A stretch of 32,000 nt of DNA from NCBI RefSeq assembly GCF_000354175.2, contig NC_022349.1, forward strand, positions 480,001-512,000, written 5' to 3'. This DNA comes from Vibrio alginolyticus NBRC 15630 = ATCC 17749 (GTDB lineage Bacteria > Pseudomonadota > Gammaproteobacteria > Enterobacterales > Vibrionaceae). This document shows, piece by piece, positions 3,883 to 21,100 of the stretch; the stretch's first letter is position 1, and each line of letters begins with the position of its first letter. The translations under genes were made by a program, and so were the position numbers. The notes below the pieces were generated by a model. That model was given only the letters and a program-made list of their open reading frames with translations. It searched no databases and had not been told where the DNA came from.

Positions 3883-3915
3883 AAGCGGTATGCGAAAGCA
3901 TGCCGCTTTTTTTTT
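3883..3915 (+). terminator. Rho-independent terminator after the BCCT gene
   Basis: AAGCGGTATGC / GCATGCCGCTT stem (one G-U pair) with a GAAA loop, followed by a run of about 9 T. Confidence 0.8.
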
Positions 3916-4048
3916 GGATTTCTATTTTTCTCTGAGAAATGAACAGCATGGAAAACGGTCTTATTCTGGTTGTTTTTTGTACTGTGCATTTAGGTGACTA
4001 TTTAATAAATTAGACCTCGAACTATTTTAACTTTTGGTTAATAGGTTT

Positions 4049-4074
4049 ATTTTTGTGATTTGAATCACAAAAAT
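4049..4074. promoter_or_regulatory. CRP-type palindrome (TGTGA-N6-TCACA) upstream of ectA
   Basis: ATTTTTGTGATT|TGAATCACAAAAAT. Half-sites TGTGA (4054-4058) and TCACA (4065-4069) are separated by 6 nt, and the flanks extend the palindrome to 11-12 bp per arm. It lies about 100 nt upstream of the ectA start. Confidence 0.55.
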
Positions 4075-4157
4075 ACCGATAAAAAGGCGGATTATTTGAT
4101 TTTTAGTCGCGAGGGATGCCCATAATAAAAAGGAAATTTAATTAGACCTCAAAGGAT

Positions 4158-4703: not shown

Positions 4704-4737
4704 TCCTCAAACAATAGGAAATAAAAACGGTCTCATC

Positions 4738-6003: not shown

Positions 6004-6017
6004 TAAGGATTTTAATT

Positions 6018-6404
6018 ATGATCGTCAGAACTCTAGATGAATGCCGCAACAGCGAACGACGTGTTGTTTCAGATAACTGGGAAAGTGTCCGCATGTTGTT
6101 GAAAGACGACAACATGGGTTTCTCTTTCCACATCACAACGATTTATGAAGATACAGAAACTCATATTCACTATCAAAACCACCTTGAATCGGTGTTTTGT
6201 ATGAGTGGTGAAGGTGAGATTGAAGTTGTAGGTGGAGAAACGTACCCAATCAAACCAGGTACATTATATATCCTTGATAAACACGATGAGCACTACTTGA
6301 GAGCTTATAAGAATAAAGAAATGGTAATGGCGTGTGTGTTTAACCCACCGATTACTGGCGCTGAAGTGCACGATGAAAACGGTGTTTATCCTCTCGTTGA
6401 CTAA
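6018..6404 (+). CDS. ectC: Ectoine synthase EctC
   Basis: 128-aa cupin with the typical EctC N-terminus [43 protein letters not shown] lies upstream. Confidence 0.95.
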
Positions 6405-6413
6405 AAGATGATG

Positions 6414-6435
6414 GTGGGGTGCTTTGCCACCCCAC
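6414..6435 (+). terminator. Intra-operon hairpin between ectC and ask (possible attenuator)
   Basis: Perfect 8-bp GC-rich stem GTGGGGTG / CACCCCAC with a 6-nt loop, followed by an interrupted T-rich stretch (CTCTTCTTTTTTCTTTTT). Confidence 0.35.
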
Positions 6436-6490
6436 ACTTTACTATCTCTTCTTTTTTCTTTTTAAAGTTACCAATCAAAAAAGGCTTATC

Positions 6491-8027: not shown

Positions 8028-8090
8028 CTACTCATGCTAAATGCGTCTTTGATTTTTCCAGAAGTCAAAGAGGACAAATAACATGAGTAG
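8028..8090 (+). promoter_or_regulatory. Structured tnpA leader that sequesters the SD and start codon
   Basis: CTACTCATG (8028-8036) is the exact reverse complement of CATGAGTAG (8082-8090), which contains the ATG at 8083. A nested stem TCTTTGA (8046-8052) / TCAAAGA (8065-8071) overlaps the AGAGG SD. Confidence 0.5.
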
Positions 8091-8517
8091 ATACAATCAA
8101 GCTTCCCACGTATTTTGGCGTTGTCAATACCATATAGTGTGGACGCCAAAGTATCGATTTAGGATCTTGAAGAACAATATAGGTAAAGAAGTTTATCGAT
8201 GTATTTATGTTTACTGTAATCAACTTGGATGTGAAGTCGTAGAGCTAAACGTACAAGTTGACCACGTACATTTAGTTGTAAAGGTCCCACCAAAGCTTTC
8301 GATATCCAAGTTGATGGGGGTATTGAAAGGCAAAATAGCCTTAAAGCTATTTAGCAAGTTTCCTCACCTTAGGAAGAACAGGCTTTGGGGTAATCACTTT
8401 TGGCAAAGAGGCTATTTTGTCGATAGTGTTGGAATCAATGAAGAAATAATACGCCGATATGTAAGACATCAAGAGAAGCAAGAGCGAGTAGAGCAGCAGC
8501 AATTGGCGCTGGACTAA
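8083..8517 (+). CDS. tnpA: IS200/IS605-family Y1 (HUH) transposase TnpA
   Basis: 144 aa. Contains the HUH motif VDHVHLVV, a C-terminal catalytic-Tyr region WQRGYFVDSVG, and the N-terminus CQYHIVWTPKYR typical of IS200 TnpA. Confidence 0.92.
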   Translation: MSRYNQASHVFWRCQYHIVWTPKYRFRILKNNIGKEVYRCIYVYCNQLGCEVVELNVQVDHVHLVVKVPPKLSISKLMGVLKGKIALKLFSKFPHLRKNRLWGNHFWQRGYFVDSVGINEEIIRRYVRHQEKQERVEQQQLALD

Positions 8518-8654
8518 ACAAAGGCCCCCTTTTAGGGGGCTCACACAAAGCCACCTTCTTTAGAAGGTGGTAATTTACTTTTCAGTTTGTACTCACAATG
8601 CCCACTTTGTATAGGCTAAACAGGCGATTTAAGTAAGTTCCTATGTGGCGATAC

Positions 8655-8714: not shown

Positions 8715-10280
8715 TTACTTAAACTTGCTGATTTCTTGTTCAACTTTGTCTAGTTGTTGCAGCTTCTCTTGCATTTTTAGAGAGTCGTAGTTTAGTGAAG
8801 CAGGGTTCATCGCTGTGCCACGCTGCATTGGGTATTCTGGAAGTGTTTTAAAGAACTCTCCCACAACGTCTTGTACAGGTACAAATAGCCACATGTTGTC
8901 AGCCATCCAACGCAAGTACATTTGTGATTCGCTTGGGCCTTTTTCGAATGGGTCAGCGCGTAGGTGGATGATTTTAGGCCAGTTCGGAGCAAAACGAACT
9001 GCGTTACTTAGGTTCCCTTCAAGCGTTGCAAAGTGAAGTTTCCAGTCATTCCAGCGGACAGCGTTTAATTCACCATTAGACGTAAAGTAAAGCAGCGACT
9101 CACGAGGGCCTTTTTCTTCCTTACCTTCAAAGTATGGCATGAAGTTATAACCATCTAAATGCACACGCCATTCTTTGCCATTTGCTTTGTAGCCTTCTGC
9201 CAGTTTTTCTTTTACATCAGGTACGCCAGCAGCTGCCAATAATGTAGGCAACCAGTCTTGGTGTGCCATCATTTCATTGATCTTGGTTCCTGGCTTAATG
9301 ACGCCTGGCCAACGAACCAGTTGAGGAACACGCATACCGCCTTCCCAAGTTGTACCTTTTTCACCATGGAATGGTGTTGCGCCACCATCTGGCCAAGTCA
9401 TGGTTTCTGCGCCGTTGTCCGTTGAGTAGATAACGATAGTGTTGTCTGCAACACCTAGCTCATCCAGCTTGTCGAGTAAAACACCTACATGATCATCATG
9501 TTCCAGCATACCATCGGCATAAATGCTTACACCTGATTTACCTTGGTATTTTTCCTGCAAGCGAGTCCAAACGTGCATACGAGTGGCGTTATGCCAAATA
9601 AAGAAGGGTTTATCCGCCTTAACTGCTTTTTCCATAAATGCCAAAGAGCTCTCTAGGAACTCTTCATCTGCGTGCTCCATACGTTTTCGTGTCATCGGGC
9701 CAGTGTCTTCAATCTTACCGTCGGCATAAGACTTAATGACACCACGAGGGCCATAGTTTTTACGAAACTCTGGGTCTTTAGGGTAGTAATAAGTTTCAGG
9801 TTCTTCTTCTGCGTTTAGGTGATATAAGTTACCGAAGAATTCGTCAAAGCCGTGTTTTGTCGGTAAGTGCTTATCTTGGTCACCTAAGTGGTTTTTACCA
9901 AATTGACCCGTCATGTAACCTTGTTCTTTTAACAGATCTGCAATGGTTGGTGCCCAATCAGGTATGCCGTGGTCAGAGCCTGGCATACCAATTGTTAACA
10001 AACCCGTACGAAATGGCTCTTCACCCGTAATAAAGGCAGCGCGACCAGCAGTACAAGACTGTTGTCCGTAGTGATCTGTGAACAACGCACCTTCATTCGC
10101 GATACGGTCGATGTTTGGCGTTTTGTAACTCATCATACCTTGGTTGTATGCGCTGATATTCCAGTAGCCGATATCGTCACCAAAAATTGCCAGTATATTC
10201 GGTTTGTCTGCTGCTATAGCAGCACTAGACGCCGCTAACAGTCCTGCGCCTACAGCGGTTTTGCTCAATTGATTTGCCAT
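8715..10280 (-). CDS. Secreted Cys-type (formylglycine-dependent) sulfatase, paralogue 1
   Basis: 521 aa from MANQLSKTAVGAGLLAASSAAIAADKPNIL (signal peptide), with GGAG 6 nt upstream. The sulfatase core is QQSCTAGRAAFITG, with the Cys codon at 10053-10055. Also present are GDD metal-site residues and STDNG/GEKGTTWEGGMRVP motifs. The track start at 10343 adds 21 implausible residues. Confidence 0.9.
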   Translation of the reverse strand: MANQLSKTAVGAGLLAASSAAIAADKPNILAIFGDDIGYWNISAYNQGMMSYKTPNIDRIANEGALFTDHYGQQSCTAGRAAFITGEEPFRTGLLTIGMPGSDHGIPDWAPTIADLLKEQGYMTGQFGKNHLGDQDKHLPTKHGFDEFFGNLYHLNAEEEPETYYYPKDPEFRKNYGPRGVIKSYADGKIEDTGPMTRKRMEHADEEFLESSLAFMEKAVKADKPFFIWHNATRMHVWTRLQEKYQGKSGVSIYADGMLEHDDHVGVLLDKLDELGVADNTIVIYSTDNGAETMTWPDGGATPFHGEKGTTWEGGMRVPQLVRWPGVIKPGTKINEMMAHQDWLPTLLAAAGVPDVKEKLAEGYKANGKEWRVHLDGYNFMPYFEGKEEKGPRESLLYFTSNGELNAVRWNDWKLHFATLEGNLSNAVRFAPNWPKIIHLRADPFEKGPSESQMYLRWMADNMWLFVPVQDVVGEFFKTLPEYPMQRGTAMNPASLNYDSLKMQEKLQQLDKVEQEISKFK

Positions 10281-10668
10281 AAAAACTCCAGATTGTTGAG
10301 AGTAAAGATAAGCACAAGTGAGCCTTATGCTTAGTTGCTGCATAAGTTAATGATGTATATAGAAAAATCCTCTTATACTCGATATAACTATAAGTTATTG
10401 CTAGGTAGTAACCATTTGTTAATTAAGAAGAAATAGGATTGTCCTGTTAGTTTGTAGAGATTCGTAAAGTAGATTTAGATCACTGAAGAGCCTTATTTTT
10501 ATTGCGTAGTAGAAGAGGGGATGGAAATGAAAAACAATAGGATGCTCGCTTGTTTTACGGTCCTAAAGCAATACTAAAGTCGTTATGTATTGCTTGTAAT
10601 TATTTGTATAACCAGTGATTTAGTGTCTATATTGATTTAGGTTGTGCATTATAAATATAAGGATATCT

Positions 10669-12999
10669 ATGAGTCAGTGGGCAGGCCGGTTTCGTATTTT
10701 ATTGCTGGTCAACGTTGTTGTCAGTTTTATGGCTTTTTCTCAAGAGTTATTAACAGAGAAACCAAATATTCCTTTAGGCTTAAATCCAGAATATGCTGGC
10801 ACACAAGCTTGTATAGATTGCCACCAAAACGAGGTGGAGGCCTGGAAAGGGTCACATCACGATATGGCCATGAAGCATGCAAGTACAACCTCTGTGCGTG
10901 GTAATTTTGATAACCATGTTGTAACACACAAAGGAATGCCTAATCGTTTTTTTAAAAAAGGCGGCGAATATTGGGTCAACATTCAAGGCTCTGACGGGCA
11001 ATGGCATGACTATAAGATCAGCTATACATTTGGCTGGGAACCATTACAGCAGTACATGGTCGAGTTTGAAGATGGCCGCGTGCAGCTTATTCCTTTTGCT
11101 TGGGACACAAGAGCTAAAGTTGAAGGGGGACAGCGTTGGTTTCATCTTTATCCAGAAACGACAACAACGGATGAATTCTATTGGACCAATACCGGGCAAA
11201 ATTGGAACTTCATGTGTGCTGATTGCCATTCAACGCACCTAAAGAAGAATTACGACGCTGACAAAAACACTTACAACAGCTCATGGTCAGAGATTAATGT
11301 GGGATGCGAAGCATGCCATGGTCCTGCTAGTCAGCACATAGAACTGGCCAAGAAATACAAAAATGCTGGCACTTCTTTTGAGCATGACAGCCATTATGGC
11401 TTTGATCGAAATTTGTCTAAAGCAGTGTCGGATTGGGTGTTTGAGGAAGGCCATAGTACGTTACAGCCGAAATCAATTGAAGCAACCAATCAAGTGCAAA
11501 CATGCGCTCAATGCCATAGTCGCCGAACCCAGTTAAATGAAACAGGTGATCATGTTAAAGGTTCCTTTTTTGATAAATATCGCTTAAGTCTTATAACACC
11601 TGAACTCTACTATCATGATGGACAGATTTACGACGAAGATTATGTTTATGGTTCGTTTCTTCAATCTGAAATGGCGGAGAAGGGGGTCACGTGCACTAAT
11701 TGCCATGATCCACACACGGCAGAATTAACGATCCCAGAAGAGGCAGTATGTTCGCAATGCCATATTGCATCTGAATATACACCTGAAAAGCATACCTTTC
11801 ATAAGGCTGGATCTGAAGCATCGCAATGTACGACTTGTCACATGCCAGAAACGACTTACATGCAAGTCGATCCTCGTAGAGACCACAGTTGGCATATTCC
11901 ACGACCAGATTTGAGCAAACATATTGGAACGCCCAATGTTTGCATGTCATGCCATGAAGATAAAAGCAATCAATGGGCCGATGAACAGATAGCAGAATGG
12001 TACCCGAATTCGAAGTATCGTAATCAGCAACATTTTGCTGTCGCATTTTATGCGGATTCAATTGGTCATCAAGGAGCAGCAAATGCGTTAGCATACTCTG
12101 CTCAGGATTCGTCTTTAAAAGACATTATTCGCGCCTCAGCCCTGGAGAGGATGGGAGGCAATACAGACCAAAATACAACAGTATCTTTGGCTAGGGCCGT
12201 TAAGAATGAGAATGAAATGGTTCGATTAGGGGCAATTTCAGGCTCGTCTGGTTATGAATTTCATGATCGGTGGCGGATTCTAGAGCCATTGCTTGATGAC
12301 CCGGTGCTTTCAGTGAGAACGGAAGCTGCCTCGGTGCTGGTAGCGAACTACGCACAAATGACCCCTTTACAAAAAGATATCATTAAATCGCCTTTAGAAG
12401 AGTACATGGAAATTCAAGAGTTTAATGCCGATCGTGGTTTCGGAAGAACCAATTTGGCGAATGTGTACCGCAGCTTAGGTGAAATCGACAAAGCGGCCGA
12501 GCTGTATAAACAAGCGATCAGCATCGAACCCTATTTCGAAAATAGCTACGTTAACCTAGCAGATTTGTATCGTCACCTAGGTAAAGAAGAAGCTGCGCTC
12601 ACGGTGCTACAACAAGGGATGAAAGCTCAACCTAAATCCAGCACGTTACCATACAGCGCAGGTCTTTCTTTGTTGCGTCAAGGCAAAGCTGATGATGCGA
12701 AAAAGCTACTTAGACGCGCCGCAGAAATTGGTGAAACTAATGCTCATTATTGGTACGTGTACGGTCTAGCTCTAGAAAAAAGCGATGTTCTAGAAGCCAG
12801 TAAAGCGTTGCAAACAGCATTTGAAGTCGGTGGCAATCCACAGCACTTGTATGCTCAATGCGAGGTTCTAGCGAGAAATCATAAAAAAGGTGCTGTCGCT
12901 TTTGCTTTCGATAGGTGCATACAAGAGCTTAGTCACTATGCACCTAAACAAGCTATTGATCAGCTTAAAGCCTCTATTGTCGGGGTCAATAGGAGCTAA
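10669..12999 (+). CDS. Secreted octaheme c-type cytochrome fused to HEAT-like and TPR repeats
   Basis: 776 aa from MSQWAGRFRILLLVNVVVSFMAFSQE (signal peptide), with AAGGA 5 nt upstream. There are eight CXXCH motifs (CIDCH, CADCH, CEACH, CAQCH, CTNCH, CSQCH, CTTCH, CMSCH) in the first ~450 aa. The C-terminal ~300 aa carry HEAT-like and TPR-like helical repeats. Confidence 0.85.
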   Translation: MSQWAGRFRILLLVNVVVSFMAFSQELLTEKPNIPLGLNPEYAGTQACIDCHQNEVEAWKGSHHDMAMKHASTTSVRGNFDNHVVTHKGMPNRFFKKGGEYWVNIQGSDGQWHDYKISYTFGWEPLQQYMVEFEDGRVQLIPFAWDTRAKVEGGQRWFHLYPETTTTDEFYWTNTGQNWNFMCADCHSTHLKKNYDADKNTYNSSWSEINVGCEACHGPASQHIELAKKYKNAGTSFEHDSHYGFDRNLSKAVSDWVFEEGHSTLQPKSIEATNQVQTCAQCHSRRTQLNETGDHVKGSFFDKYRLSLITPELYYHDGQIYDEDYVYGSFLQSEMAEKGVTCTNCHDPHTAELTIPEEAVCSQCHIASEYTPEKHTFHKAGSEASQCTTCHMPETTYMQVDPRRDHSWHIPRPDLSKHIGTPNVCMSCHEDKSNQWADEQIAEWYPNSKYRNQQHFAVAFYADSIGHQGAANALAYSAQDSSLKDIIRASALERMGGNTDQNTTVSLARAVKNENEMVRLGAISGSSGYEFHDRWRILEPLLDDPVLSVRTEAASVLVANYAQMTPLQKDIIKSPLEEYMEIQEFNADRGFGRTNLANVYRSLGEIDKAAELYKQAISIEPYFENSYVNLADLYRHLGKEEAALTVLQQGMKAQPKSSTLPYSAGLSLLRQGKADDAKKLLRRAAEIGETNAHYWYVYGLALEKSDVLEASKALQTAFEVGGNPQHLYAQCEVLARNHKKGAVAFAFDRCIQELSHYAPKQAIDQLKASIVGVNRS

Positions 13000-13005
13000 T
13001 TACCA

Positions 13006-13036
13006 AAAGTGGAGCTTTTATCGCTCCACTTTTTTC
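13006..13036. terminator. Terminator hairpin between convergent genes
   Basis: AAAGTGGAGC / GCTCCACTTT stem followed by a T-run on the + strand. It lies between the cytochrome stop (12999) and the FGE-fold gene stop (13046). Confidence 0.75.
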
Positions 13037-13045
13037 TTACTTAGT

Positions 13046-13834
13046 TTAATCAGCGTCTTTCGCTAATCTCAGCCCCATGTCGGACATGATGACTGACTGG
13101 CTAGCAAAATCGCGACGATAGTTTTCGGATTCGTCAGCATCATAGGCAAAGCTACCACCTCGTACAGACTTGTGTGCAAGGCTTTCTTTTTCATCTTTTG
13201 CGTTTACCGGATTATCACTTGGTGCTGATTTGTAATAACCTTCATCAAACGCATCAATAACAAACTCACCAACATTACCCGTCATATCGTATAAGCCAAG
13301 CTCATTCGGTTTTTTCTGACCTACCTTGTGTGCCTTATTGTTTGAGTTACTGGCATACCAGGCAACGTCGTTAATATCATCAGCTCCCGCGTAAGTGAAT
13401 CCTTGACTTAGATTCCCCCCTTTCGCTGCAAACTCCCATTCTGCTTCTGTGGGTAAACGATAGTGCTCTCCCGTTTTTTCATTCAATTTCTTTATAAAAT
13501 AATTGGCTTGTTGCCAGCTAATGTTATTTACGGGCGTATTTGGGTTTCTAAAATAACTCAGAGAAGAGCCTGTAACCGATTCGAATAACTCTTGGGTTAC
13601 CTCAAATTTTGCCAAATAGAAATCTTCCACGCGAACGGTGCGAGCCGGGCGCTCGGATTTATTTGCTGACGGATTATCCGAGCCCATCGTAAATTGTCCA
13701 CCTTCAATAAGAACCATATCTTGATCGATTTTTTGGGCAAGAGGGCTAGGTTGTGTTGTTGCACATCCAGTCATAATTAGCGAAATCGAAATAGCGGCAC
13801 CAAGGTAAAGAGTATTACTTTTGGAATGCTTCAT
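13046..13834 (-). CDS. FGE-sulfatase-fold (SUMF1/PvdO-like) lipoprotein lacking the catalytic Cys pair
   Basis: 262 aa. The lipobox is SLIMTGC. FGE-fold hallmarks are present (RLPTEAEWEFAAKGG, GLYDMTGNVGEFV, VRGGSF). The only Cys in the protein is the lipobox Cys. The region after RGGSF reads AYDADESENYRRD instead of the C-x4-C of active FGEs. Confidence 0.8.
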   Translation of the reverse strand: MKHSKSNTLYLGAAISISLIMTGCATTQPSPLAQKIDQDMVLIEGGQFTMGSDNPSANKSERPARTVRVEDFYLAKFEVTQELFESVTGSSLSYFRNPNTPVNNISWQQANYFIKKLNEKTGEHYRLPTEAEWEFAAKGGNLSQGFTYAGADDINDVAWYASNSNNKAHKVGQKKPNELGLYDMTGNVGEFVIDAFDEGYYKSAPSDNPVNAKDEKESLAHKSVRGGSFAYDADESENYRRDFASQSVIMSDMGLRLAKDAD

Positions 13835-14012
13835 AGGGGAGCTCCATCAACATTTATGATCAAAGAATTTTATCAGGCAAGTCTATGAAAAACAGTTATA
13901 CACACTATAACAAGCGCCACGAATAATTGAACATTATCATCACACTAGGCGATTAACTTAATGATTAGTCTTAGCGCCGTTGGGCACAGGCTAGCAACTA
14001 AGAAGGTGATGA

Positions 14013-15338
14013 ATGCACATAACTCAAGGTCCGCAGTTCAATGGAAAAGCATCCAAGCGATTACATGTCATGGCGAAACCTATCGGTGCAGTGTGCAATA
14101 TCGATTGCACCTATTGTTACTACCTAAGCAAACAAGATTTACTTGAGTACAAGCCAGGCTGCTCACCAGTCATGGATGAGGAAACGCTCGAGACCTATAT
14201 CCGTCAATATATAGCGGGACAAAATACACCTGAAATTATTTTCTCTTGGCAGGGTGGTGAGCCGACAATGCTAGGTTTGGATTATTTCAAGACAATTGTT
14301 GAGCTACAGAATAAATACCGTCCCGATGGCATTACGATCTCCAATGACCTCCAGACTAATGGCACACTGCTTAACGATGAATGGTGTGAGTTTTTAAAGG
14401 CGAACAACTTTCTCGTCGGTTTAAGCATTGATGGCCCAGAAATGATGCACAACGCTTACCGAACAAACCGAGCTGGTAGAGGCACATTCCGGCAAGTTAT
14501 GAATGCGGTTGAATTATTACATAAGCACGAAGTAAAGTTTGCTACGCTCACTTGTGTTAACAACTTGACCGGCCGTAACCCACTTGAAGTGTACCGATTC
14601 TTGCGAGATGAAGTACGCTCCCCTCAAATGCAGTTTATTCCAATAGTTGAGCAGAAAACATTCAGAACAACCGCCCCTCAAACTTGGGAGCCAAACGAGC
14701 AACTAAAGCAAGGAGATAAACGGTTGATCCCAGGTCATAAAGATGCCGTTGTTGAGCCTTTTTGCGTTGCGGATGAAGCATGGGGAAATTTTCTGATCGC
14801 GATTTTCAATGAATGGGTTTTACACGATATCGGCAACGTGTTTGTGCAGTACTTTGAAGCCAGTATCGAAACCTGGATGGGCAGAAAAAACCCACTGTGT
14901 ACGTTAGGTGAAATCTGCGGGAAGGGCTTAGCAATGGAGCCTAATGGTGATGTGTTTGCGTGTGATCATTACGTGTACCCAGAATATAAGGTTGGAAACA
15001 TTCATCACGAAAAGCTCGATACGCTCGCTTATAGCTCTGAGCAGCAGAAATTTGGGTTTGCTAAAAGTCGTACGCTGCCCCAACAGTGCCTTCAATGTGA
15101 TTATCAATTTGCATGTTTTGGAGAATGTCCCAAAAACCGTTTTATCCGTACTAGGCAAGGTGAGCCTGGTCTTAATTATCTCTGCGCGGGTTGGAAGAAG
15201 TTTTTTACCCATGTTGATCAGTCGATGGCGTACATCTTACGAGCGACAGGTAACCCAGTGGTTCACGGTAAATACAGTGACCAGATTCTACACCAGCAAG
15301 CTACTCAAACACAGACTGTGTTTGAAACGAAGTTTTAA
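14013..15338 (+). CDS. Anaerobic sulfatase-maturating enzyme (radical SAM / SPASM)
   Basis: 441 aa. Contains the radical-SAM cluster motif CNIDCTYC, the SAM-binding motif WQGGEPT, and the C-terminal SPASM Cys motifs CGKGLAMEPNGDVFACDHY and CLQCDYQFACFGEC. GAAGG lies 5 nt upstream. No signal peptide. Confidence 0.88.
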   Translation: MHITQGPQFNGKASKRLHVMAKPIGAVCNIDCTYCYYLSKQDLLEYKPGCSPVMDEETLETYIRQYIAGQNTPEIIFSWQGGEPTMLGLDYFKTIVELQNKYRPDGITISNDLQTNGTLLNDEWCEFLKANNFLVGLSIDGPEMMHNAYRTNRAGRGTFRQVMNAVELLHKHEVKFATLTCVNNLTGRNPLEVYRFLRDEVRSPQMQFIPIVEQKTFRTTAPQTWEPNEQLKQGDKRLIPGHKDAVVEPFCVADEAWGNFLIAIFNEWVLHDIGNVFVQYFEASIETWMGRKNPLCTLGEICGKGLAMEPNGDVFACDHYVYPEYKVGNIHHEKLDTLAYSSEQQKFGFAKSRTLPQQCLQCDYQFACFGECPKNRFIRTRQGEPGLNYLCAGWKKFFTHVDQSMAYILRATGNPVVHGKYSDQILHQQATQTQTVFETKF

Positions 15339-15391
15339 GATAGTCACTACGCCTGCTACAGGCCCGGAAATGAAAGAATATAGGTTATTGA

Positions 15392-16489
15392 ATGCAAAAA
15401 ATTAAGCTGCTCTCTAAATCATTACTCGTGATCTCGATCGGCATTGCTGCGAGTCAAACAGCAGTGGCACAAGAAACAACATTGCTAGACCCAGATCAAG
15501 TATCGCCGACAACGGTTGTCACTCCACAAGAAGCTCAAATGACACCGGCGCAACGAGTCGAAAAGCTGTCTTATGATGCGCAAAATAAAAAGTTGTCTTC
15601 AGAAAAACGTATTGATGCTTTACGTGAGTTAGCCAACTATCCAAGCCAAAATGCATTGGTTGCAGTTGCGCGTGGGTTGCAGGATGAAGATGCAGGTATT
15701 CGCGAAGCTGCGATCGTGGGAGCACAGCCATATATGATTGAGCACCGTTGGCGTTTGATTTCACCGTTATTGAGTGATGACGCCGCCATGGTGCGAATTA
15801 CAGCAGCGATTAACCTCGTTCGAGATTACGCCAATTTGAGTTCGGAGCAACAGCAGTCACTTGAGGGGCCTGTTTCAGAGCTGACAGCACACTTGTCCAG
15901 TAAGAACGATAATGTTTCCAAGTTATTACTTGCAGACGTTTACCGTTGGCATCGTGATTGGGATAAAGCGGCGCTGATATACCCAGAGTTAACTAAGCTT
16001 GAGCCAAACAACCCTCAAGTTTGGTTAAGCTATGCAGACAACTTCCGAGCGCAACAGCTAGACCAAAAAGCTATCAACGTGCTTGACGAGGGTATCAAGC
16101 TAAATTCAGAAGATGCCTCGCTGCATTATTCTAAATCTCTCGCTTTGGTTAGATTAGACAAAAAGAAAGAAGCGGCGTTTGAAATAGACAAAGCTGCGAC
16201 GATGGCAACGACGAACAGTTACTTTTGGTATTTAAATGGTGTTCTGCAAGAAGAGTTAGACTTGAAGAAGTCTGTCAACGCTTTTGAGCAAGCGTATTTG
16301 ATATCCGGTGCTCCAGAACAATTGTATGCCGTGTGTGACATCTATGTCAGATACGGCAACCCTAAAACGGATGACTGTTTAACAGAGCTAACGAAGGTCG
16401 CTCCCGACTATGTTATTGAAGAGCTCAATCAGAAAAAGGGACGTAAAAGTGCCTCTACATCAGTTGAAGCCAATGAATTTAAACTCTAA
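15392..16489 (+). CDS. Secreted HEAT/TPR repeat protein, heme-less paralogue of the cytochrome C-terminal half
   Basis: 365 aa with signal peptide MQKIKLLSKSLLVISIGIAASQTAVAQE. It is colinear by eye with residues ~540-776 of the cytochrome. For example, LLSDDAAMVRITAAINLV matches LLDDPVLSVRTEAASVLV, and EQLYAVCDIYVRYG matches QHLYAQCEVLARNH. There is no CXXCH motif. It starts 53 nt after the anSME stop. Confidence 0.75.
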   Translation: MQKIKLLSKSLLVISIGIAASQTAVAQETTLLDPDQVSPTTVVTPQEAQMTPAQRVEKLSYDAQNKKLSSEKRIDALRELANYPSQNALVAVARGLQDEDAGIREAAIVGAQPYMIEHRWRLISPLLSDDAAMVRITAAINLVRDYANLSSEQQQSLEGPVSELTAHLSSKNDNVSKLLLADVYRWHRDWDKAALIYPELTKLEPNNPQVWLSYADNFRAQQLDQKAINVLDEGIKLNSEDASLHYSKSLALVRLDKKKEAAFEIDKAATMATTNSYFWYLNGVLQEELDLKKSVNAFEQAYLISGAPEQLYAVCDIYVRYGNPKTDDCLTELTKVAPDYVIEELNQKKGRKSASTSVEANEFKL

Positions 16490-16651
16490 TCGGTAAATTC
16501 CATGTTCCTATTTCAATAAAATAGTGAACCAATTTAGTGACGGCGTCACTCTTTGGTGGCCGTTGGATATGTCAGTTCAATATGCGCCTGTTTCAATTGA
16601 ACTATACTTTTGATTGGATTCGCACCTAGCACCTCAATATAAGGAATTAAG

Positions 16652-17650
16652 ATGGCTATAAAGTTAAAGGCGATTGTCTTAGCAACAGGTTTAGCTCTGT
16701 CTAGTTACGCTGTTGCTGCTGATATGCAAGATCCACTTCCGTCATGGAACAACACTGACGCTAAGCAAGCTATTATGGCGTTTGTTACGAAAACAACGAC
16801 CCAAGGTTCGGATTCCTATGTGCCTGAAAGCCAACGAATCGCGACGTTTGATAATGATGGAACACTTTGGGCAGAAAAGCCTGTTTATCTACAGTTGTTT
16901 TTTGCGATCGATAGAGTAAAAGAAATGGCCTCTGAGCATCCTGATTGGAAGACAACCGAACCCTTTGCTTCCGCATTAAAAGGTGACATGGAGGGGATTG
17001 GTAAACAAGGACTCGAAGGTGTAATGAAGCTTGTTATGGCAACCCATTCTGGAATGTCTACTGAACAGTTTCATCAAGAAGTTAAGGAATGGTTGAAAAC
17101 GGCTGTCCATCCAACAACGGGTAGACCATACACTGAAATGGTCTATCAACCTATGCTCGAACTGCTCGACTATTTAAGAGCGAACGACTATCAGACCTAC
17201 ATCGTTTCTGGAGGCGGTATTGAATTTATGCGCGTTTGGGCGCCGGAAGTATACGGCATTCCAACGCAAAACATCGTGGGGACGACGTTAAAGGCGGAAT
17301 ATCAAAGTGTTGATGGAAAACCTACCATCCTACGCATGCCGGAAATAGACTTCGTCAATGACAAAGCAGTAAAGCCTGTGACGATTCAAAACTTCATTGG
17401 CAAACGTCCGGTCATGGCGTTTGGTAATTCTGATGGTGATTTACAGATGTTAGAGTGGACGAAAGCAGGTTCAGGTCCAAGATTTTCTGCGATTATCCAT
17501 CACACGGATGACAAGCGCGAATGGGCGTATGATAAAGATTCTCATGTTGGTAAGTTAGATGAATCGTTTAAAGTAGGTGAAGAGCAAGGTTGGCTATTTG
17601 TCGATATGAAACAAGATTGGAATCAAGTGTTTAAAGAGAGCACTAAATGA
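16652..17650 (+). CDS. Signal-peptide-bearing HAD-superfamily hydrolase (putative periplasmic phosphatase)
   Basis: 332 aa with signal peptide MAIKLKAIVLATGLALSSYAVAAD. HAD motif I is FDNDGTLW (DxDxT), motif II is IVSGG, and motif III/IV is GKRPVMAFGNSDGDLQML. Confidence 0.75.
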   Translation: MAIKLKAIVLATGLALSSYAVAADMQDPLPSWNNTDAKQAIMAFVTKTTTQGSDSYVPESQRIATFDNDGTLWAEKPVYLQLFFAIDRVKEMASEHPDWKTTEPFASALKGDMEGIGKQGLEGVMKLVMATHSGMSTEQFHQEVKEWLKTAVHPTTGRPYTEMVYQPMLELLDYLRANDYQTYIVSGGGIEFMRVWAPEVYGIPTQNIVGTTLKAEYQSVDGKPTILRMPEIDFVNDKAVKPVTIQNFIGKRPVMAFGNSDGDLQMLEWTKAGSGPRFSAIIHHTDDKREWAYDKDSHVGKLDESFKVGEEQGWLFVDMKQDWNQVFKESTK

Positions 17651-17702
17651 TAATCTTTGTTTGACCATAACTTGCTGCAACCAAACAATTGCAACGAAAT
17701 AA

Positions 17703-17724
17703 AAGGCCTCACAATTGAGGCCTT
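17703..17724. terminator. Hairpin terminator between convergent genes
   Basis: AAGGCCTC-ACAATT-GAGGCCTT. The T-rich tract falls on the minus-strand transcript (TTTTATTTCGTT), so it fits sulfatase 2 best. Confidence 0.7.
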
Positions 17725-17757
17725 AGTTAATTCCACAGTAGCTTCGATACCTAGGGT

Positions 17758-19275
17758 CTAGTTTCTAGGTTGCTGTGTCATTGTTTCTACCACTTTTTCA
17801 ATACTTAACGAGCTACCTTTCGTGGCAGGGAACTCCTTGAATGTCTCTAGGAACTTACGCACGATAGCTTGAGCAGGAACGAACATCCACATTTGATCAG
17901 CGTAAAAATGTCTGACGTAAAGTGCTGCATCTGGACCGACCTCAAATGGATCCATACGAAGGTTTACAATCAAAGGCCAACTAGGTGTTTTGCGGTATGC
18001 CTCATTAATGGCACCTTCCATAATACTGAAGTGGATCTTCCAGTCTTTATAACGAACGGCGTTTAAATTACCACCAGCATCGAAGTAAAAGATTTCTTTG
18101 CGTGCGCCTTCGTCAGCTTTACCAGTCAGCAGATCAAGTTGGTTGTAGCCATCTAAATGTGCTTTAAAGGTTTTGCCCGCTGCTTTATGACCCTTCAATA
18201 GTTTTTCTTTCACATCTGGTTCGCCCACAGCTGCGAGTATAGTTGGCATCCAGTCTTCTTGTGAAAAGATATCGTTGATAACCGTTCCTGGTTTAATGTT
18301 TCCAGGCCAGCGTACCATCATCGGAACGCGGAATCCGCCTTCCCAAGTCGTACCTTTTTCGCCCTTGAACGGTGTAGTACCACCATCTGGCCAGGTAAAT
18401 TTCTCAGCGCCATTATCAGTACTAAAAACAACAATGGTGTTATCTGCTACGCCTAGCTCTTCAAGTTTATCAAGCATGACACCTACTTGATCATCTAGGT
18501 CCATCATGCCATCGGCGTATAAGCCGTAACCTGACTTCCCTTGATATTCTTCACTCAAATGTGTCCAGACGTGCATACGGGTTGAGTTATGCCAAATAAA
18601 GAATGGTTTGTCTTCTTTTACTGCTTTTTCCATAAATGCCAAGCTAGCATCCATGAACTCTCGGTCTACGTTTTCCATACGCTTACGAGTAAGGGGACCA
18701 GTGTCCTCGATTTTGCCATCCGCAGTCGCCTTCAACACGCCTCGAGGTCCGAATTTTTTACGAAACTCTGGATCTTTTGGATAAAACTCAGACTCAGGCT
18801 CTTCTTCCGCGTTTAAATGGTATAGGTTACCAAAGAACTCATCAAACCCATGGTTAGTTGGTAGGTGCTCATCTTGATCACCAAGGTGGTTTTTACCAAA
18901 CTGACCAGACACATAGCCGTGATTTTTAAGTAACTCTGCGATAGTAGGATCTTTCGATTGAATACCCTCTTTTGCGCCGGGCATACCAATAGTCAATAGA
19001 CCGGTACGAAACGGATGTTGACCCAGAATAAATGAGGCTCGTCCGGCAGTACAACTCTGTTGTGCGTAAGCGTCTGTGAAAATGGCACCTTCATTGGCGA
19101 TTTTATCAATGTTAGGAGTCTTCCCTCCCATCATACCATTGTGATACGCACTAATGTTGTATACACCTACATCGTCACCCCAGAACACAAGGATGTTGGG
19201 CTTATCGGCAGCAAAGGCTGTGGACGCAGCTAATGTACCGACCAATGCCATTACCTTTTTAATCGAGTTTCGCAT
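17758..19275 (-). CDS. Secreted Cys-type sulfatase, paralogue 2
   Basis: 505 aa with signal peptide MRNSIKKVMALVGTLAASTAFAADKPNIL. The core is QQSCTAGRASFILG, with the Cys codon at 19051-19053. It is colinear with paralogue 1 and roughly two-thirds identical by eye. Confidence 0.9.
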   Translation of the reverse strand: MRNSIKKVMALVGTLAASTAFAADKPNILVFWGDDVGVYNISAYHNGMMGGKTPNIDKIANEGAIFTDAYAQQSCTAGRASFILGQHPFRTGLLTIGMPGAKEGIQSKDPTIAELLKNHGYVSGQFGKNHLGDQDEHLPTNHGFDEFFGNLYHLNAEEEPESEFYPKDPEFRKKFGPRGVLKATADGKIEDTGPLTRKRMENVDREFMDASLAFMEKAVKEDKPFFIWHNSTRMHVWTHLSEEYQGKSGYGLYADGMMDLDDQVGVMLDKLEELGVADNTIVVFSTDNGAEKFTWPDGGTTPFKGEKGTTWEGGFRVPMMVRWPGNIKPGTVINDIFSQEDWMPTILAAVGEPDVKEKLLKGHKAAGKTFKAHLDGYNQLDLLTGKADEGARKEIFYFDAGGNLNAVRYKDWKIHFSIMEGAINEAYRKTPSWPLIVNLRMDPFEVGPDAALYVRHFYADQMWMFVPAQAIVRKFLETFKEFPATKGSSLSIEKVVETMTQQPRN

Positions 19276-19522
19276 GAAAATCCTCCGCGATAAATGAATC
19301 CATTATCGTTATATAACGTTACTAATTGTGTTCATCATGGCGAAGTCGAGTGAGATGACACCAAATGAGACAATGTAGTCAGTTGAATATAGTAGAGGTT
19401 TTTTGTTGCTTCCAAGTAATCCCTGTTTTTCAAAAATGTTAACTAACATGGACTAGACTTTAGTGTGTTTTAAGTGTGATAAGACGCACTTACAGGATTG
19501 AATTTCAATGAAAGGCGACACT

Positions 19523-20948
19523 ATGAAAAATAAACTAGCAACTATCCTGTTTCTATGTATCCCGTTAGAAGTGGTTGCGGAAGAGACACCAAATGTCGTG
19601 GTAATGTTGGTTGATAACCTTGGGTGGGGGGAACTAAGTTCCTATGGGAGTACCAGAGGTGTTGAAACTAAAAACTTAGATCAACTTGCTAGAGAAGGTG
19701 TACGCCTTACTAATTTTAATGTGGAACCGCAATGCACGCCAACTCGCTCCTCATTCATGACGGGGAGGCGAGCGCTTAGATCTGGGACAGATAAGGTTGT
19801 TTGGGGAGTGCCTTACGGTATGGTGAACTGGGAGATAACCATTGCAGAGAAGTTTAAGGAACAAGGATATAACACGAGCCTTTACGGGAAATGGCATTTG
19901 GGAGACCAAAAAGGGCGCTTTCCAACGGATCAAGGCTTTGATGAATGGTATGGCATTGCAAATACGACGGATGAGTCAGAATATAGCTCTCAACCCGGTT
20001 ATAAAGCTATATTACCTAAACCTCAAATCCTTTCAGCTAGAGCAGGGCAGGATCCTAAAGGGGTCAAAGAATATAATTTGGACTCACGTAGAACGATTGA
20101 CAGTGAGCTAGTTGAACATGCCACAGATTTTATAAATCGAAATGTGAAAGAGAATAAGCCATTTTTCTCTGTAATTACTTTTACTCAACCACATTTACCG
20201 ACGCTACCTCATCCTGATTTTATTGGTAAAACAGGCAAAGGAAATTACTCAGATGTGTTAGCTGAGATAGATTTTCGAGCTGGGCAAGTTATTGGTGCAA
20301 TAGAAAAAGCAGGAATTAAAGACAATGCACTAGTGATTTGGTTTTCTGACAACGGTCCAGAGTGGCATATGCCATAGCGGACCATGGCGTGGTGCGTACT
20401 TTACGGCTCTTGAAGGCTCTCTCCGAACACCATTTATTGCCTCTTGGCCTAACCACATCAAACCGGGCAGAGTGAGTGATGAAATTATCCATGTTGTGGA
20501 TCTATTTGCCTCACTTTCTCATGTCGGTGGATACAAATTACCAAGCGATAGAACAATAGATAGTATTGATCAGTGGGCCTTTTTAAAGGGAGATAGTGAA
20601 AAGTCTAATCGAGATGGTTTCATCGTTAACAATGGATCTGAAACCTACGCTTATAAGTGGGAAAATTACAAGATGCACTTTATTGATCAAGATATCATGC
20701 CGGAGAAAGGGCGCCCATTACAGATCCCTGAAATATACAATTTGATTGATGACCCTAAAGAGGAGTTTGATTTAAGAAATAATGCCACATGGTTATTTCC
20801 TATCATGATAGGAAAGAGAGTAAAGTTTGAATCTTCCGTTTCAACAAGCTGCGATACGATTCCTTTCCCTGCTCCATTTGGATATGAGCCCGATTGTAGC
20901 AAGGGGAATTTCAATCAATTTCCAGTGGATGGATTACGCCAGAAGTAG
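19523..20948 (+). pseudogene. Frameshifted Cys-type sulfatase (paralogue 3)
   Basis: The N-terminal ORF (to the TAG at 20375-20377) carries a signal peptide and the canonical core EPQCTPTRSSFMTGRR (Cys codon 19733-19735), and ends ...FSDNGPEWHMP*. The conserved C-terminal half (HSGPWRGAYFTALEGSLRTPFIASWPNHIKPG...VVDLFASL) continues in a different frame that opens at 20337. The start could also be the ATG at 19508. Confidence 0.8.
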
Positions 20949-21100
20949 TTTACCCCAATGGCTCTTTCTCGCATACATGAGGTATGTTTTTGGTTCAATA
21001 TCTCATTAGAGCCATTTAGGGCCATGTTTTTTCTAGTTTCATTTGAACAGTCATATTCGTCGACCATACTTAAAGTTCGTTGTTTCATATGGGGCGAATT

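What the first reader, a model, noticed from the sequence alone, without database searches (positions are those of the whole stretch)
8715..20948. Sulfatase island built around a secreted octaheme cytochrome-HEAT/TPR protein, a Cys-less FGE-fold lipoprotein, an anSME and a secreted HAD hydrolase
Seen: within ~12 kb, three sulfatase genes bracket five other genes. The sulfatases are 8715-10280 (-), 17758-19275 (-) and the frameshifted 19523-20948 (+). The five bracketed genes are:
- a signal-peptide octaheme cytochrome c with a HEAT/TPR tail (10669-12999);
- an FGE-fold lipoprotein (13046-13834, -);
- a radical-SAM/SPASM maturase (14013-15338);
- a secreted HEAT/TPR protein (15392-16489);
- a secreted HAD hydrolase (16652-17650).
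Established: sulfatases need Cys/Ser-to-formylglycine conversion, either by FGE (O2/Cu) or by anSME (radical SAM, cytoplasmic). Neither route is known to need a periplasmic multiheme cytochrome.
Inference: every partner except the maturase carries an export signal. The cluster may therefore encode a periplasmic redox/scaffold module that works with the sulfatases. It could be an electron relay coupled to processing of a sulfated substrate, or a respiratory enzyme acting on a released sulfur species. The island begins right after an IS200 copy and shows no regulator or transporter, which fits accessory DNA.
Basis: partly seen in the sequence, partly recalled or inferred. Interest (0 to 1): 0.7.

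Follow-up and report, generated by a model that had tools for sequence, protein, structure and literature searches.

The report
Sulfatases linked to an octaheme cytochrome
A Vibrio gene cluster pairs secreted sulfate-ester hydrolases with an uncharacterised eight-heme periplasmic cytochrome, and the same pairing recurs across many bacterial phyla, pointing to an undescribed partnership between sulfatases and a redox protein.

Summary
The window comes from Vibrio alginolyticus or a very close relative.

In 76 species-representative loci holding homologues of the cytochrome, a sulfatase is by far the commonest neighbour (29 loci). It is usually the adjacent gene. Sulfatase density is about 25-fold higher within 2.5 kb of the cytochrome than at 5-10 kb (p = 1.6e-10).

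The linked sulfatases form one subfamily with an invariant S-C-T-A-G-R motif. They are scattered over at least eight branches of the cytochrome tree. Other recurrent partners are the secreted HAD hydrolase, the Cys-less FGE-fold lipoprotein and a MoxR/Bat operon.

The heme domain folds like OcwA and MccA, which are catalytic multiheme reductases.

- The IS200 is a strain-specific insertion, not an island border.
- sulf2 and sulf3 are a variable add-on.
- The stand-alone HEAT/TPR paralogue is lineage-specific.

The anSME is an ordinary maturase and is rarely co-located elsewhere. The function of the cytochrome is unknown. I favour a docking and redox role in activating the sulfatases, with low confidence. 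I found no prior report of this pairing.

The parts
8715..10280 (-). sulf1: secreted Cys-type S1 sulfatase of the CTAGR subfamily (an alternative upstream start lies at 10343)
   Evidence: PF00884, E = 9e-55. Motif QQSCTAGRAAF at residue 76, and this is its only Cys. Conserved at this site in L166 and L167.
10669..12999 (+). Octaheme c-type cytochrome (residues about 40-440, with a beta-sheet domain at 68-160) fused to a HEAT/TPR alpha-solenoid (about 434-772); Sec signal peptide
   Evidence: Eight CXXCH motifs, invariant across the family. AlphaFold2 model, pLDDT 86.7. The heme domain folds like OcwA (E = 4e-13, TM 0.61) and MccA.
13005..13033 (.). Hairpin of 11 base pairs followed by a T-run, between the convergent cytochrome and FGE-like genes; probably a bidirectional terminator
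   Evidence: Terminator scan. This is a consensus match only.
13046..13834 (-). FGE-fold lipoprotein without the catalytic cysteine pair
   Evidence: PF03781, E = 9e-44. Its single Cys is the lipobox Cys. The best PDB match is T. denticola Tvp1, 2y3c, not a true FGE. Orthologues lie between sulfatase and cytochrome in L011 and L145, and between sulfatase and MoxR in L095.
14013..15338 (+). Anaerobic sulfatase-maturing enzyme (radical SAM/SPASM), cytoplasmic
   Evidence: TIGR03942 equivalog at 482.8 bits, cut-off 349.45. PF04055 and PF13186. CNIDCTYC cluster motif.
15392..16489 (+). Secreted HEAT/TPR protein, a heme-less paralogue of the cytochrome's C-terminal solenoid; lineage-specific
   Evidence: 32% identity over 295 aa to cytochrome residues 474-766, E = 7e-45. 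Present in L166 and L167. No stand-alone counterpart in the other 160 loci.
16652..17650 (+). Secreted HAD-IB-type hydrolase (DxDGT motif FDNDGTLW), the most frequent partner of CTAGR sulfatases
   Evidence: PF12710. PDB 4ovy, E = 7e-113. Next to a CTAGR sulfatase in 16 of 80 metagenome loci and in 9 of 76 cytochrome loci.
17758..19275 (-). sulf2: second CTAGR sulfatase, 66% identical to sulf1; part of a strain-variable segment
   Evidence: Absent at this position in L166 and L167, where a DeoR gene follows HAD.
19508..20948 (+). sulf3: canonical CTPTR S1 sulfatase, broken by a frameshift near 20,370 (pseudogene or sequencing error)
   Evidence: Two ORFs, 19508-20377 and 20472-20948, matching the N- and C-terminal parts of sulfatases. 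Sequence read.
8083..8517 (+). IS200 transposase; a strain-specific insertion and not a component or border of the module
   Evidence: NF033573 at 153 bits. Absent between the aspartokinase gene and sulf1 in L166 and L167.

Best explanation
The region is a genuine, conserved functional module built around secreted Cys-type S1 sulfatases of one subfamily, marked by an invariant S-C-T-A-G-R motif.

Shown or standard:
- The sulfatase precursors carry the Ala variant of the (C/S)-x-(P/A)-x-R signature. Radical-SAM maturases accept this variant.
- The cluster's cytoplasmic anSME is the expected maturase. It would convert Cys to formylglycine before Sec export.
- The octaheme cytochrome-TPR protein is a periplasmic member of the OcwA/MccA/c554 branch of catalytic multiheme cytochromes.
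- Across phyla its strongest genomic partner is this sulfatase subfamily.
- The secreted HAD hydrolase, the Cys-less FGE-fold lipoprotein and (elsewhere) a MoxR-DUF58-BatA/B/D operon are recurrent accessory members.

Inferred mechanism, which I commit to with low confidence:
- The cytochrome acts as a redox-active docking partner that helps bring CTAGR sulfatases into, or keep them in, their active state in the periplasm.
- The HEAT/TPR solenoid would bind the sulfatase. The FGE-fold lipoprotein would be a pFGE-like, non-catalytic binder of the motif segment.
- The heme chain would move electrons between the respiratory chain and a distally open heme (heme 2 by homology).
- That heme would carry out or support an oxidative step on the active-site residue. 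This would be an alternative or back-up to the oxygen-sensitive anSME route.

The HAD and the phosphodiesterase seen in other loci suggest that the module's overall job is extracytoplasmic hydrolysis of sulfate and phosphate esters, not polysaccharide catabolism or respiration.
For: Linkage:
- Sulfatase is the top neighbour family of the cytochrome: 32 loci by BLAST clustering and 29 of 76 with phmmer support. The next family reaches only 16.
- The nearest sulfatase is the adjacent gene or one gene away in 22 loci.
- Sulfatase density is 9.4 per 100 kb within 2.5 kb of the cytochrome and about 0.36 per 100 kb at 5-10 kb (binomial p = 1.6e-10).
- Of 42 flanking sulfatases, 26 carry S-C/S-TAGR.
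- Linked cytochromes lie in at least 8 separate clades with different gene orders.
- Reciprocally, 10 of 80 sulfatase-anchored contigs hold the cytochrome, despite short flanks.

Pointers towards maturation or activation:
- The conserved context is dominated by maturation and assembly-type proteins: anSME, FGE fold, MoxR AAA+ with VWA, and TPR.
- No transporters, glycoside hydrolases or quinol dehydrogenases recur near the proteobacterial clusters.
- Both independent Ser-type SSTAGR copies sit beside an anSME, against 1 of 100 Cys-type copies. In contrast, 26 of 100 Cys-type copies have the cytochrome within two genes.
- CTAGR is a substrate motif for a radical-SAM AtsB, while classical FGE uses CTPSR (PMC8068374).

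Redox competence:
- All eight heme motifs are invariant, with seven conserved non-motif His for eight hemes.
- The fold matches OcwA and MccA, including the beta-sheet domain those two share (PMC6703420).
- Hemes 1-3 align to OcwA hemes 1-3, where heme 2 is the open active site (PMC6703420).
- In FCB-group loci the gene neighbours a Rieske/cytochrome b complex.
Against: - The association is facultative. About 62% of cytochrome loci have no sulfatase within 10 kb, and most CTAGR sulfatase contigs show no cytochrome.
- The window already encodes an anSME, which is sufficient for maturation by known biochemistry.
- There is no precedent for heme-dependent formylglycine formation.
- The OcwA/MccA-like fold and the Rieske/cytochrome b neighbourhood fit a small-molecule or terminal reductase at least as well.
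- The FGE-fold protein's best structural relative is T. denticola Tvp1, of unknown function. It is closer to PorK/GldK-type lipoproteins than to FGE.
- I could not inspect model coordinates, so no open heme or binding groove was demonstrated.
- The 80 genome loci are the hits most similar to a sulfatase-linked query, which may inflate the frequency.
- Gene calls in the loci were made with a crude longest-ORF rule.
Confidence: 0.33

Rival explanations
1. The cytochrome-TPR protein is a periplasmic reductase or terminal electron-transfer enzyme. Its substrate would be made available by the sulfatase and HAD hydrolases, for example a redox-active aglycone such as a quinol or catechol freed from its sulfate or phosphate ester, or another small oxidant. 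The sulfatase would feed the cytochrome; the cytochrome would not serve the sulfatase.
For: - The fold is closest to OcwA, a terminal reductase that also reduces nitrite and hydroxylamine, and to the sulfite reductase MccA (PMC6703420).
- Arg/Asp/His residues are conserved in the heme core (RRDH and CHSRR).
- A Rieske/cytochrome b/cytochrome c operon sits next to the gene in six FCB-group, Calditrichota and Aminicenantes loci.
- Tight, often co-directional, sulfatase-(HAD)-cytochrome arrangements.
Against: - S1 sulfatases release sulfate, which is not reducible without activation (established knowledge).
- There is no MccA-type Cu site: the heme domain has no Cys outside the heme motifs.
- No dedicated quinol dehydrogenase or MccBCD/NrfH-like partner recurs in the proteobacterial clusters.
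- The natural substrate of the sulfatase subfamily is unknown.
- This reading gives no role to the TPR solenoid, the FGE-fold protein or the MoxR/Bat genes.
Confidence: 0.27
2. The genes work independently. The cytochrome-TPR protein would belong to a Bat/MoxR-type envelope redox or stress system, and it would sit near the sulfatase, HAD and phosphodiesterase genes only because all are co-regulated extracytoplasmic functions of the same lifestyle.
For: - The MoxR-DUF58-DUF4381-BatA-BatB-BatD operon follows the cytochrome in Vibrionaceae and Cellvibrionales even where no sulfatase is present (L008, L012, L013).
- Most family members have no sulfatase nearby.
- In the window the cytochrome has its own terminator and looks monocistronic.
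Against: - The enrichment is sharply distance-dependent and specific to one sulfatase subfamily.
- It recurs in at least 8 clades and several phyla with rearranged gene orders, including 10-bp co-directional junctions.
- The Bat operon itself also turns up beside CTAGR sulfatases in about 8 of 80 sulfatase-anchored contigs. That ties all three together rather than separating them.
Confidence: 0.25
3. The cluster is a chance mosaic of accessory DNA, delivered or bordered by IS200, with no functional relationship among its genes.
For: - An IS200 copy lies at 8083-8517.
- Two broken genes lie downstream: sulf3 and the adhesin.
- Base composition does not differ from the flanks, so composition gives no argument either way.
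Against: - The six-gene core lies at the same chromosomal site without IS200 in V. alginolyticus GCA_018458625 and in Vibrio sp. 1CM7H.
- The cross-phylum positional enrichment has p = 1.6e-10.
Confidence: 0.02

Closest known systems
anSME-sulfatase gene pairs (Klebsiella atsBA, Clostridium perfringens and Bacteroides anSME systems)
   Same: - A radical-SAM/SPASM maturase is encoded with Sec-exported S1 sulfatases.
- The Ala variant of the signature also occurs in the anSME-matured C. perfringens enzyme (SCIASR, PMC6189696).
- Ser-type copies in related Vibrio loci sit directly beside the anSME.
   Different: - Those systems contain no cytochrome, TPR protein, FGE-fold lipoprotein or HAD.
- Here the anSME is the least conserved member of the neighbourhood.
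OcwA (Thermincola nonaheme terminal reductase, 6i5b) and MccA (Wolinella octaheme sulfite reductase, 4rkm)
   Same: - Best structural matches for the heme domain.
- Shared c554-like N-terminal heme module and the extra beta-sheet domain (PMC6703420).
- Eight hemes, as in MccA.
   Different: - Only 13-20% sequence identity.
- Eight rather than nine hemes, compared with OcwA.
- All motifs are standard CXXCH, there is no Cu-binding Cys pair, and no mccBCD genes are present, compared with MccA.
- A roughly 340-residue HEAT/TPR solenoid follows the heme core.
- Genomic partners are sulfatases, not respiratory genes.
pFGE / SUMF2 (Cys-less paralogue of the formylglycine-generating enzyme)
   Same: FGE fold that lacks the catalytic cysteine pair, encoded in a sulfatase context. 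1y4j is among the PDB hits (E = 2e-9).
   Different: - The window protein is a bacterial outer-membrane-type lipoprotein.
- It is closer in sequence to T. denticola Tvp1 and PorK/GldK-type proteins.
- Binding to sulfatases has not been tested.
MoxR AAA+ / VWA 'Bat' (Bacteroides aerotolerance-type) operons
   Same: In related loci the cytochrome-TPR gene directly precedes or follows MoxR-DUF58-DUF4381-BatA(VWA)-BatB(VWA+TPR)-BatD. From my own knowledge, MoxR/VWA systems generally act in the maturation of metalloenzymes.
   Different: - The window itself has no MoxR or Bat genes.
- As far as I know, classical Bat operons contain no cytochrome and are not linked to sulfatases.
LbcA-CtpA type periplasmic TPR adaptors
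   Same: A TPR solenoid in the cell envelope that binds and activates a periplasmic hydrolase. LbcA (7rqf) is among the structural matches of the tail.
   Different: This is an analogy of mechanism only. There is no heme domain, the enzyme class differs, and no homology beyond the TPR repeats is shown.

Membership tests
Anaerobic sulfatase-maturing enzyme (anSME, TIGR03942) | Equivalog HMM score above the curated cut-off | tested here: met
   482.8 bits against a cut-off of 349.45.
Anaerobic sulfatase-maturing enzyme (anSME, TIGR03942) | CX3CX2C radical-SAM cluster motif plus a SPASM domain with auxiliary-cluster cysteines | tested here: met
   CNIDCTYC at residues 28-35 and 15 Cys in total. 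PF04055, PF13186 and TIGR04085.
Anaerobic sulfatase-maturing enzyme (anSME, TIGR03942) | Converts Cys or Ser of the cluster's sulfatases to formylglycine | not testable with these tools
   Needs mass spectrometry of the sulfatases with and without the anSME.
S1 formylglycine-dependent sulfatases | Sulfatase domain PF00884 and the (C/S)-x-(P/A)-x-R signature | tested here: met
   PF00884 with E = 9e-55, 5e-50 and 5e-36. CTAGR, CTAGR and CTPTR.
SulfAtlas subfamily S1_13 | Phylogenetic placement with S1_13 members such as PsFucS1 | tested here: inconclusive
   PsFucS1 (7aj0) is the closest solved chain (E = 1e-62), but its motif is CTSSR, not CTAGR. SulfAtlas itself was not available.
Aerobic formylglycine-generating enzyme (FGE) | FGE-sulfatase fold (PF03781) | tested here: met
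   E = 9e-44, covering residues 38-259.
Aerobic formylglycine-generating enzyme (FGE) | Pair of catalytic, Cu-binding cysteines | tested here: not met
   The protein has a single Cys, the lipobox Cys at residue 24. It therefore cannot be a canonical FGE.
MccA-type octaheme sulfite reductase | Eight c-type hemes and the MccA/OcwA fold with the beta-sheet domain | tested here: met
   Eight CXXCH. Foldseek match to 4rkm with E = 3e-4 and TM 0.35-0.38. Beta domain at residues 68-160. The similarity is weak.
MccA-type octaheme sulfite reductase | Cu(I) site formed by two cysteines, an unusual CX15CH motif for heme 8, and mccBCD partner genes (features recalled from the literature) | tested here: not met
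   All 16 heme-domain Cys lie in standard CXXCH motifs, and the other two Cys are in the TPR tail. No such partner genes occur in the window.
NrfA pentaheme nitrite reductase | CXXCK motif at the catalytic heme | tested here: not met
   No CXXCK motif.
OcwA-type nonaheme terminal reductase | Nine hemes with two distally open hemes (2 and 5) | tested here: not met
   There are eight heme motifs. The fold is nevertheless the best match (E = 4e-13, TM 0.61), and hemes 1-3 align.
MoxR/Bat operon | MoxR AAA+ (AAA_3), DUF58 and VWA BatA/BatB genes in the cluster | tested here: not met
   Absent from window 8-21 kb. Present next to the homologous cytochrome or sulfatase in L004-L010, L016, L075 and L145.

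The most novel reading that the evidence does not exclude
The octaheme cytochrome-TPR protein, helped by the Cys-less FGE-fold lipoprotein and in many genomes by a MoxR/Bat chaperone system, is a periplasmic, heme-dependent route for generating or restoring formylglycine in Cys-type CxAxR sulfatases after Sec export. That would be a third sulfatase-maturation system, independent of both FGE and anSME, with the electrons passed to the respiratory chain.
Probability: 0.12. Interest if true: 0.9.

Novelty: new variant of a known kind. Interest (0 to 1): 0.62.

Why it matters
Sulfatases control access to sulfated organic matter in the sea, in sediments and in animal hosts. Their activation is thought to need only FGE or anSME.

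Bacteria are known to mature Cys-type sulfatases without either enzyme. The E. coli machinery is still described as elusive (PMC6189696, citing Benjdia 2007).

A widespread but uncharacterised octaheme cytochrome-TPR family has 1,713 clusters at 50% identity with E < 1e-30. Its best-conserved genomic partner is one sulfatase subfamily, which gives a concrete and testable candidate for a redox step in sulfatase biology.

It would also give this large multiheme family its first functional handle. Even if the link proves to be metabolic rather than maturational, it would connect ester hydrolysis at the cell envelope to electron transfer in a way not described before.

Tried and rejected
1. A fold search with the full-length model returned only TPR proteins. 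I re-modelled the heme domain alone.
2. A profile search of the PDB with A3 was swamped by the TPR tails. I repeated it with the heme domain alone.
4. The IS200-bordered island idea is rejected, because relatives lack the IS200 at the same site.
5. MccA-type sulfite reductase, NrfA and canonical FGE assignments are rejected on missing defining residues.
6. I looked for another conserved partner in the 45 cytochrome loci without a sulfatase. There was none, apart from MoxR/Bat in Vibrionaceae and a Rieske/cytochrome b complex in the FCB group.
7. I looked for stand-alone HEAT/TPR paralogues outside the V. alginolyticus lineage and found none.
8. Nine literature searches (sulfatase with multiheme or octaheme cytochrome, MoxR, TPR, Vibrio arylsulfatase) found no report of the pairing.
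9. My first 'HAD' cluster in the metagenome set had merged with MoxR through one fused ORF. I used phmmer labels instead.

Full report
**Observation.**

The window comes from Vibrio alginolyticus or a very close relative. The cytochrome is 98% identical to a V. alginolyticus protein.

- sulf1 (8715-10280, -) and sulf2 (17758-19275, -) are 66% identical S1 sulfatases. Each has a single cysteine, inside the motif S-C-T-A-G-R.
- sulf3 (19508-20948, +) has the canonical CTPTR motif. A frameshift near 20,370 splits it.
- The protein at 10669-12999 has exactly eight CXXCH motifs followed by TPR/HEAT repeats.
- The FGE-fold protein (13046-13834, -) has one cysteine only, the lipobox Cys.
- 14013-15338 encodes a bona fide anSME (TIGR03942, 482.8 bits against a cut-off of 349.45).
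- 15392-16489 encodes a heme-less paralogue of the cytochrome's tail (32% identity over 295 residues, E = 7e-45).
- 16652-17650 encodes a secreted HAD-type hydrolase. A very close homologue has been solved (4ovy, E = 7e-113).

By inspection, every product except the anSME has a Sec-type signal peptide.

**What is conserved locally.**

In V. alginolyticus GCA_018458625 and in Vibrio sp. 1CM7H, six genes lie directly after the ectoine operon's aspartokinase gene: sulf1, cytochrome, FGE-like, anSME, TPR and HAD. No IS200 is present there, and a DeoR regulator follows HAD.

The IS200 at 8083-8517 is therefore a strain-specific insertion. sulf2, the broken sulf3 and the giant adhesin form a variable segment. 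The 'accessory island bordered by IS200' reading is rejected.

A strong hairpin (13005-13033) separates the convergent cytochrome and FGE-like genes. The anSME, TPR and HAD genes are co-directional, with gaps of 53 and 162 bp.

**The cytochrome family.**

The heme domain alone finds 1,713 clusters (at 50% identity) with E < 1e-30. Most members are 750-800 residues long, so the heme-plus-solenoid architecture is the norm. All eight heme motifs are invariant. Six further histidines are invariant and one more is nearly so. Seven spare histidines for eight hemes is consistent with one heme lacking a His distal ligand, but does not prove it.

No NCBIfam equivalog exists for the family.

The AlphaFold2 model is confident (pLDDT 86.7, pTM 0.87). 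It shows a beta-sheet domain (residues 68-160) between hemes 1 and 2, a heme core, and an alpha-solenoid from about residue 434 to the end.

The heme domain modelled alone (pLDDT 83.9) matches, in order:

- OcwA (E = 4e-13, TM 0.61);
- the Carboxydothermus undecaheme S-layer cytochrome;
- the octaheme sulfite reductase MccA (E about 3e-4).

OcwA and MccA share an extra beta-sheet domain that other NrfA-family proteins lack, and heme 2 is an open active-site heme in OcwA, c554 and MccA (PMC6703420). The window protein's hemes 1-3 align in sequence with OcwA hemes 1-3.

The protein lacks several defining features of related enzymes:

- It has no CXXCK motif, as in NrfA.
- It has no non-motif cysteines in the heme domain, so no MccA-type Cu site.
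- It has eight hemes, not OcwA's nine.

It is thus an uncharacterised member of an enzyme-type multiheme superfamily, not a member of any characterised family.

An alignment of 34 diverse family members was used to scan one genome per species. More than 600 matches were found, and 80 loci were kept. They span Vibrionaceae, Alteromonadales, Cellvibrionales, Pseudomonas, Alpha-, Beta- and Deltaproteobacteria, Planctomycetota, Gemmatimonadota, Acidobacteriota, Bacteroidia, Calditrichota and Aminicenantes.

I called ORFs, searched them with the window's proteins and clustered all neighbours without preconceptions.

- Sulfatase is by far the most frequent neighbour family: 32 loci by clustering, 29 of 76 with phmmer support. 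The next families are a histidine kinase (16 loci) and LysR (12 loci).
- The nearest sulfatase is the adjacent gene in 9 loci and one gene away in 13.
- Sulfatase genes occur at 9.4 per 100 kb within 2.5 kb of the cytochrome, 2.6 at 2.5-5 kb and about 0.36 at 5-10 kb.
- 32 of 42 fall in the first bin, against 28% expected (p = 1.6e-10).
- 26 of the 42 carry the S-(C/S)-T-A-G-R motif of sulf1 and sulf2.
- CTAGR sulfatases are linked in 14 of 69 non-Vibrionaceae species.

Gene orders differ between loci. They include sulfatase then cytochrome co-directional with a 10-bp gap in a Planctomycetota MAG, sulfatase-HAD-cytochrome in Pseudomaricurvus, divergent sulfatase-HAD | cytochrome in Microbulbifer, and cytochrome-anSME-sulfatase in an acidobacterium.

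On a tree of the heme domains, the linked members fall in at least eight separate clades. The association is therefore not one inherited block.

**Reciprocal test.**

I scanned metagenome contigs with an alignment of CTAGR sulfatases. This gave 80 mostly short contigs.

- The octaheme cytochrome is present in 10 of them. Complete copies have all eight heme motifs.
- In the flank-length tally (which counted 8 of these 10 loci), 5 of the 32 contigs with at least 6 kb of flank carry it.
- The HAD homologue is present in 16 of 80.
- An anSME is present in only 2 of 80.
- The FGE-fold lipoprotein is present in 2 of 80. It sits between the sulfatase and the cytochrome in L145, and between the sulfatase and MoxR in L095.
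- A MoxR(AAA_3)-DUF58-DUF4381-BatA(VWA)-BatB(VWA+TPR)-BatD operon is present in about 8.

Contig L145 carries CTAGR sulfatase, FGE-fold protein, cytochrome, MoxR, DUF58, DUF4381, BatA, BatB and a BatD-like gene, all on one strand. The same Bat-type operon follows the cytochrome in V. parahaemolyticus, V. owensii, Aliivibrio logei, Gilvimarinus and Pseudomaricurvus.

A secreted NPP-type phosphodiesterase is another recurrent neighbour.

**What the motif says.**

The S1 signature is (C/S)-x-(P/A)-x-R, and the Ala variant occurs in an anSME-matured clostridial sulfatase (PMC6189696). CTAGR is used as a tag for a radical-SAM AtsB, while classical FGE uses CTPSR (PMC8068374). So the cluster's anSME is the expected maturase of sulf1 and sulf2.

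Both independent Ser-type (SSTAGR) copies in my data lie directly beside an anSME, against 1 of 100 Cys-type copies (Fisher p = 6e-4, on very few Ser-type cases). In contrast, 26 of 100 Cys-type copies have the cytochrome within two genes.

The closest solved sulfatase, PsFucS1 of SulfAtlas S1_13, has CTSSR (PMC8484680). The subfamily assignment remains open.

**Interpretation.**

The linkage between the cytochrome-TPR family and CTAGR sulfatases is real and widespread, and I found no report of it. Its meaning has to be inferred.

The conserved context is rich in maturation and assembly-type components: anSME, an FGE fold without catalytic cysteines (reminiscent of pFGE/SUMF2), MoxR/VWA proteins and a protein-binding solenoid. 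It is poor in transporters, carbohydrate-active enzymes and quinol dehydrogenases. For that reason I favour, with about one-third confidence, a role for the cytochrome as a redox-active docking partner that helps activate or maintain these sulfatases in the periplasm.

The main rival, nearly as likely, is a reductase acting on something the hydrolases release. The OcwA/MccA-like fold supports this. So does the fact that in six FCB-group, Calditrichota and Aminicenantes loci the gene lies next to a Rieske/cytochrome b/cytochrome c operon. Reduction of the released sulfate itself is not chemically plausible.

A third reading treats the cytochrome as part of a Bat-type envelope system that is merely co-regulated with secreted esterases.

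Chance is excluded.

The association is facultative. Most family members on either side have no partner within 10 kb, and this counts against any obligate one-to-one mechanism.

**Caveats.**

- The 80 genome loci are the hits most similar to a sulfatase-linked query.
- My gene calls are longest-ORF approximations.
- Species-level sampling does not remove all phylogenetic dependence.
- I had no signal-peptide predictor, no model coordinates and no whole-genome presence/absence data.

**Verdict.**

The anSME-sulfatase part is ordinary. The conserved pairing with an uncharacterised octaheme cytochrome-TPR family is new and testable.

Noticed in passing
window 2196-7912: A BCCT-family transporter gene, followed by ectA, ectB, ectC and an aspartokinase gene (an ectoine biosynthesis operon), lies immediately upstream. 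The same arrangement is found in relatives L166 and L167.
   Followed up: partly
window 8083-8571: An IS200 transposase gene with two GC-rich hairpins just downstream (8524-8571). The element is absent from the same site in close relatives, so it is a recent insertion between the aspartokinase gene and sulf1.
   Followed up: yes
window 21080-32000: A giant adhesin-like gene with Ig-like and cadherin-like repeats (Big_13, Cadherin_4, Big_9) runs off the window. Its first 426 codons are in a different frame from the remaining 3,226 or more, with the overlap at 22323-22357. Together with sulf3, that makes two broken genes in the strain-variable segment, either pseudogenes or sequencing errors.
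   Followed up: partly
L022, L051, L052, L056, L062, L085 (e.g. L062:1440-5312): In Bacteroidia, Calditrichota and Aminicenantes the octaheme-TPR gene is divergently adjacent to an operon for a Rieske protein, a cytochrome b and a membrane multiheme/cbb3-type cytochrome c. This is a bc-type quinol oxidase module.
   Followed up: partly
L101:4838-6538, L110, L121, L095: A secreted NPP-type phosphodiesterase (PF01663, about 570 aa) recurs next to CTAGR sulfatases, directly downstream in L101, L110 and L121. DUF1254/DUF1214 proteins and a Phenol_MetA_deg-type outer-membrane protein also recur.
   Followed up: partly
L004/L005:13302-16244, L009:13285-16268, L147:697-4412: Ser-type variants of the subfamily (SSTAGR) sit next to an anSME gene: directly upstream of it in V. 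parahaemolyticus and V. owensii, and one gene downstream of two anSME-like ORFs in a metagenome contig. In the Vibrio loci a LysR gene separates this pair from the cytochrome.
   Followed up: yes
L002/L003:10001-16447 (V. vulnificus): In V. vulnificus the cytochrome homologue is followed by DUF4136, a FadL-type porin, a glutathione S-transferase and an anSME-like radical-SAM gene (749 bits to the window's anSME). No CTAGR sulfatase lies nearby; a 600-aa CTPTR sulfatase lies 9 kb away.
   Followed up: no
window 10642-10669 and 10280-10343: Both the cytochrome (TTG at 10642) and sulf1 (ATG at 10343) have possible upstream starts. The shorter forms give proper signal peptides and match the gene calls in relatives.
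   Followed up: partly
L001:10001-12316 (Shewanella gaetbuli): A 68%-identical cytochrome homologue sits between ferritin genes and dinB with no sulfatase, HAD or Bat genes within 10 kb. This shows that the family also occurs as an isolated gene.
   Followed up: no
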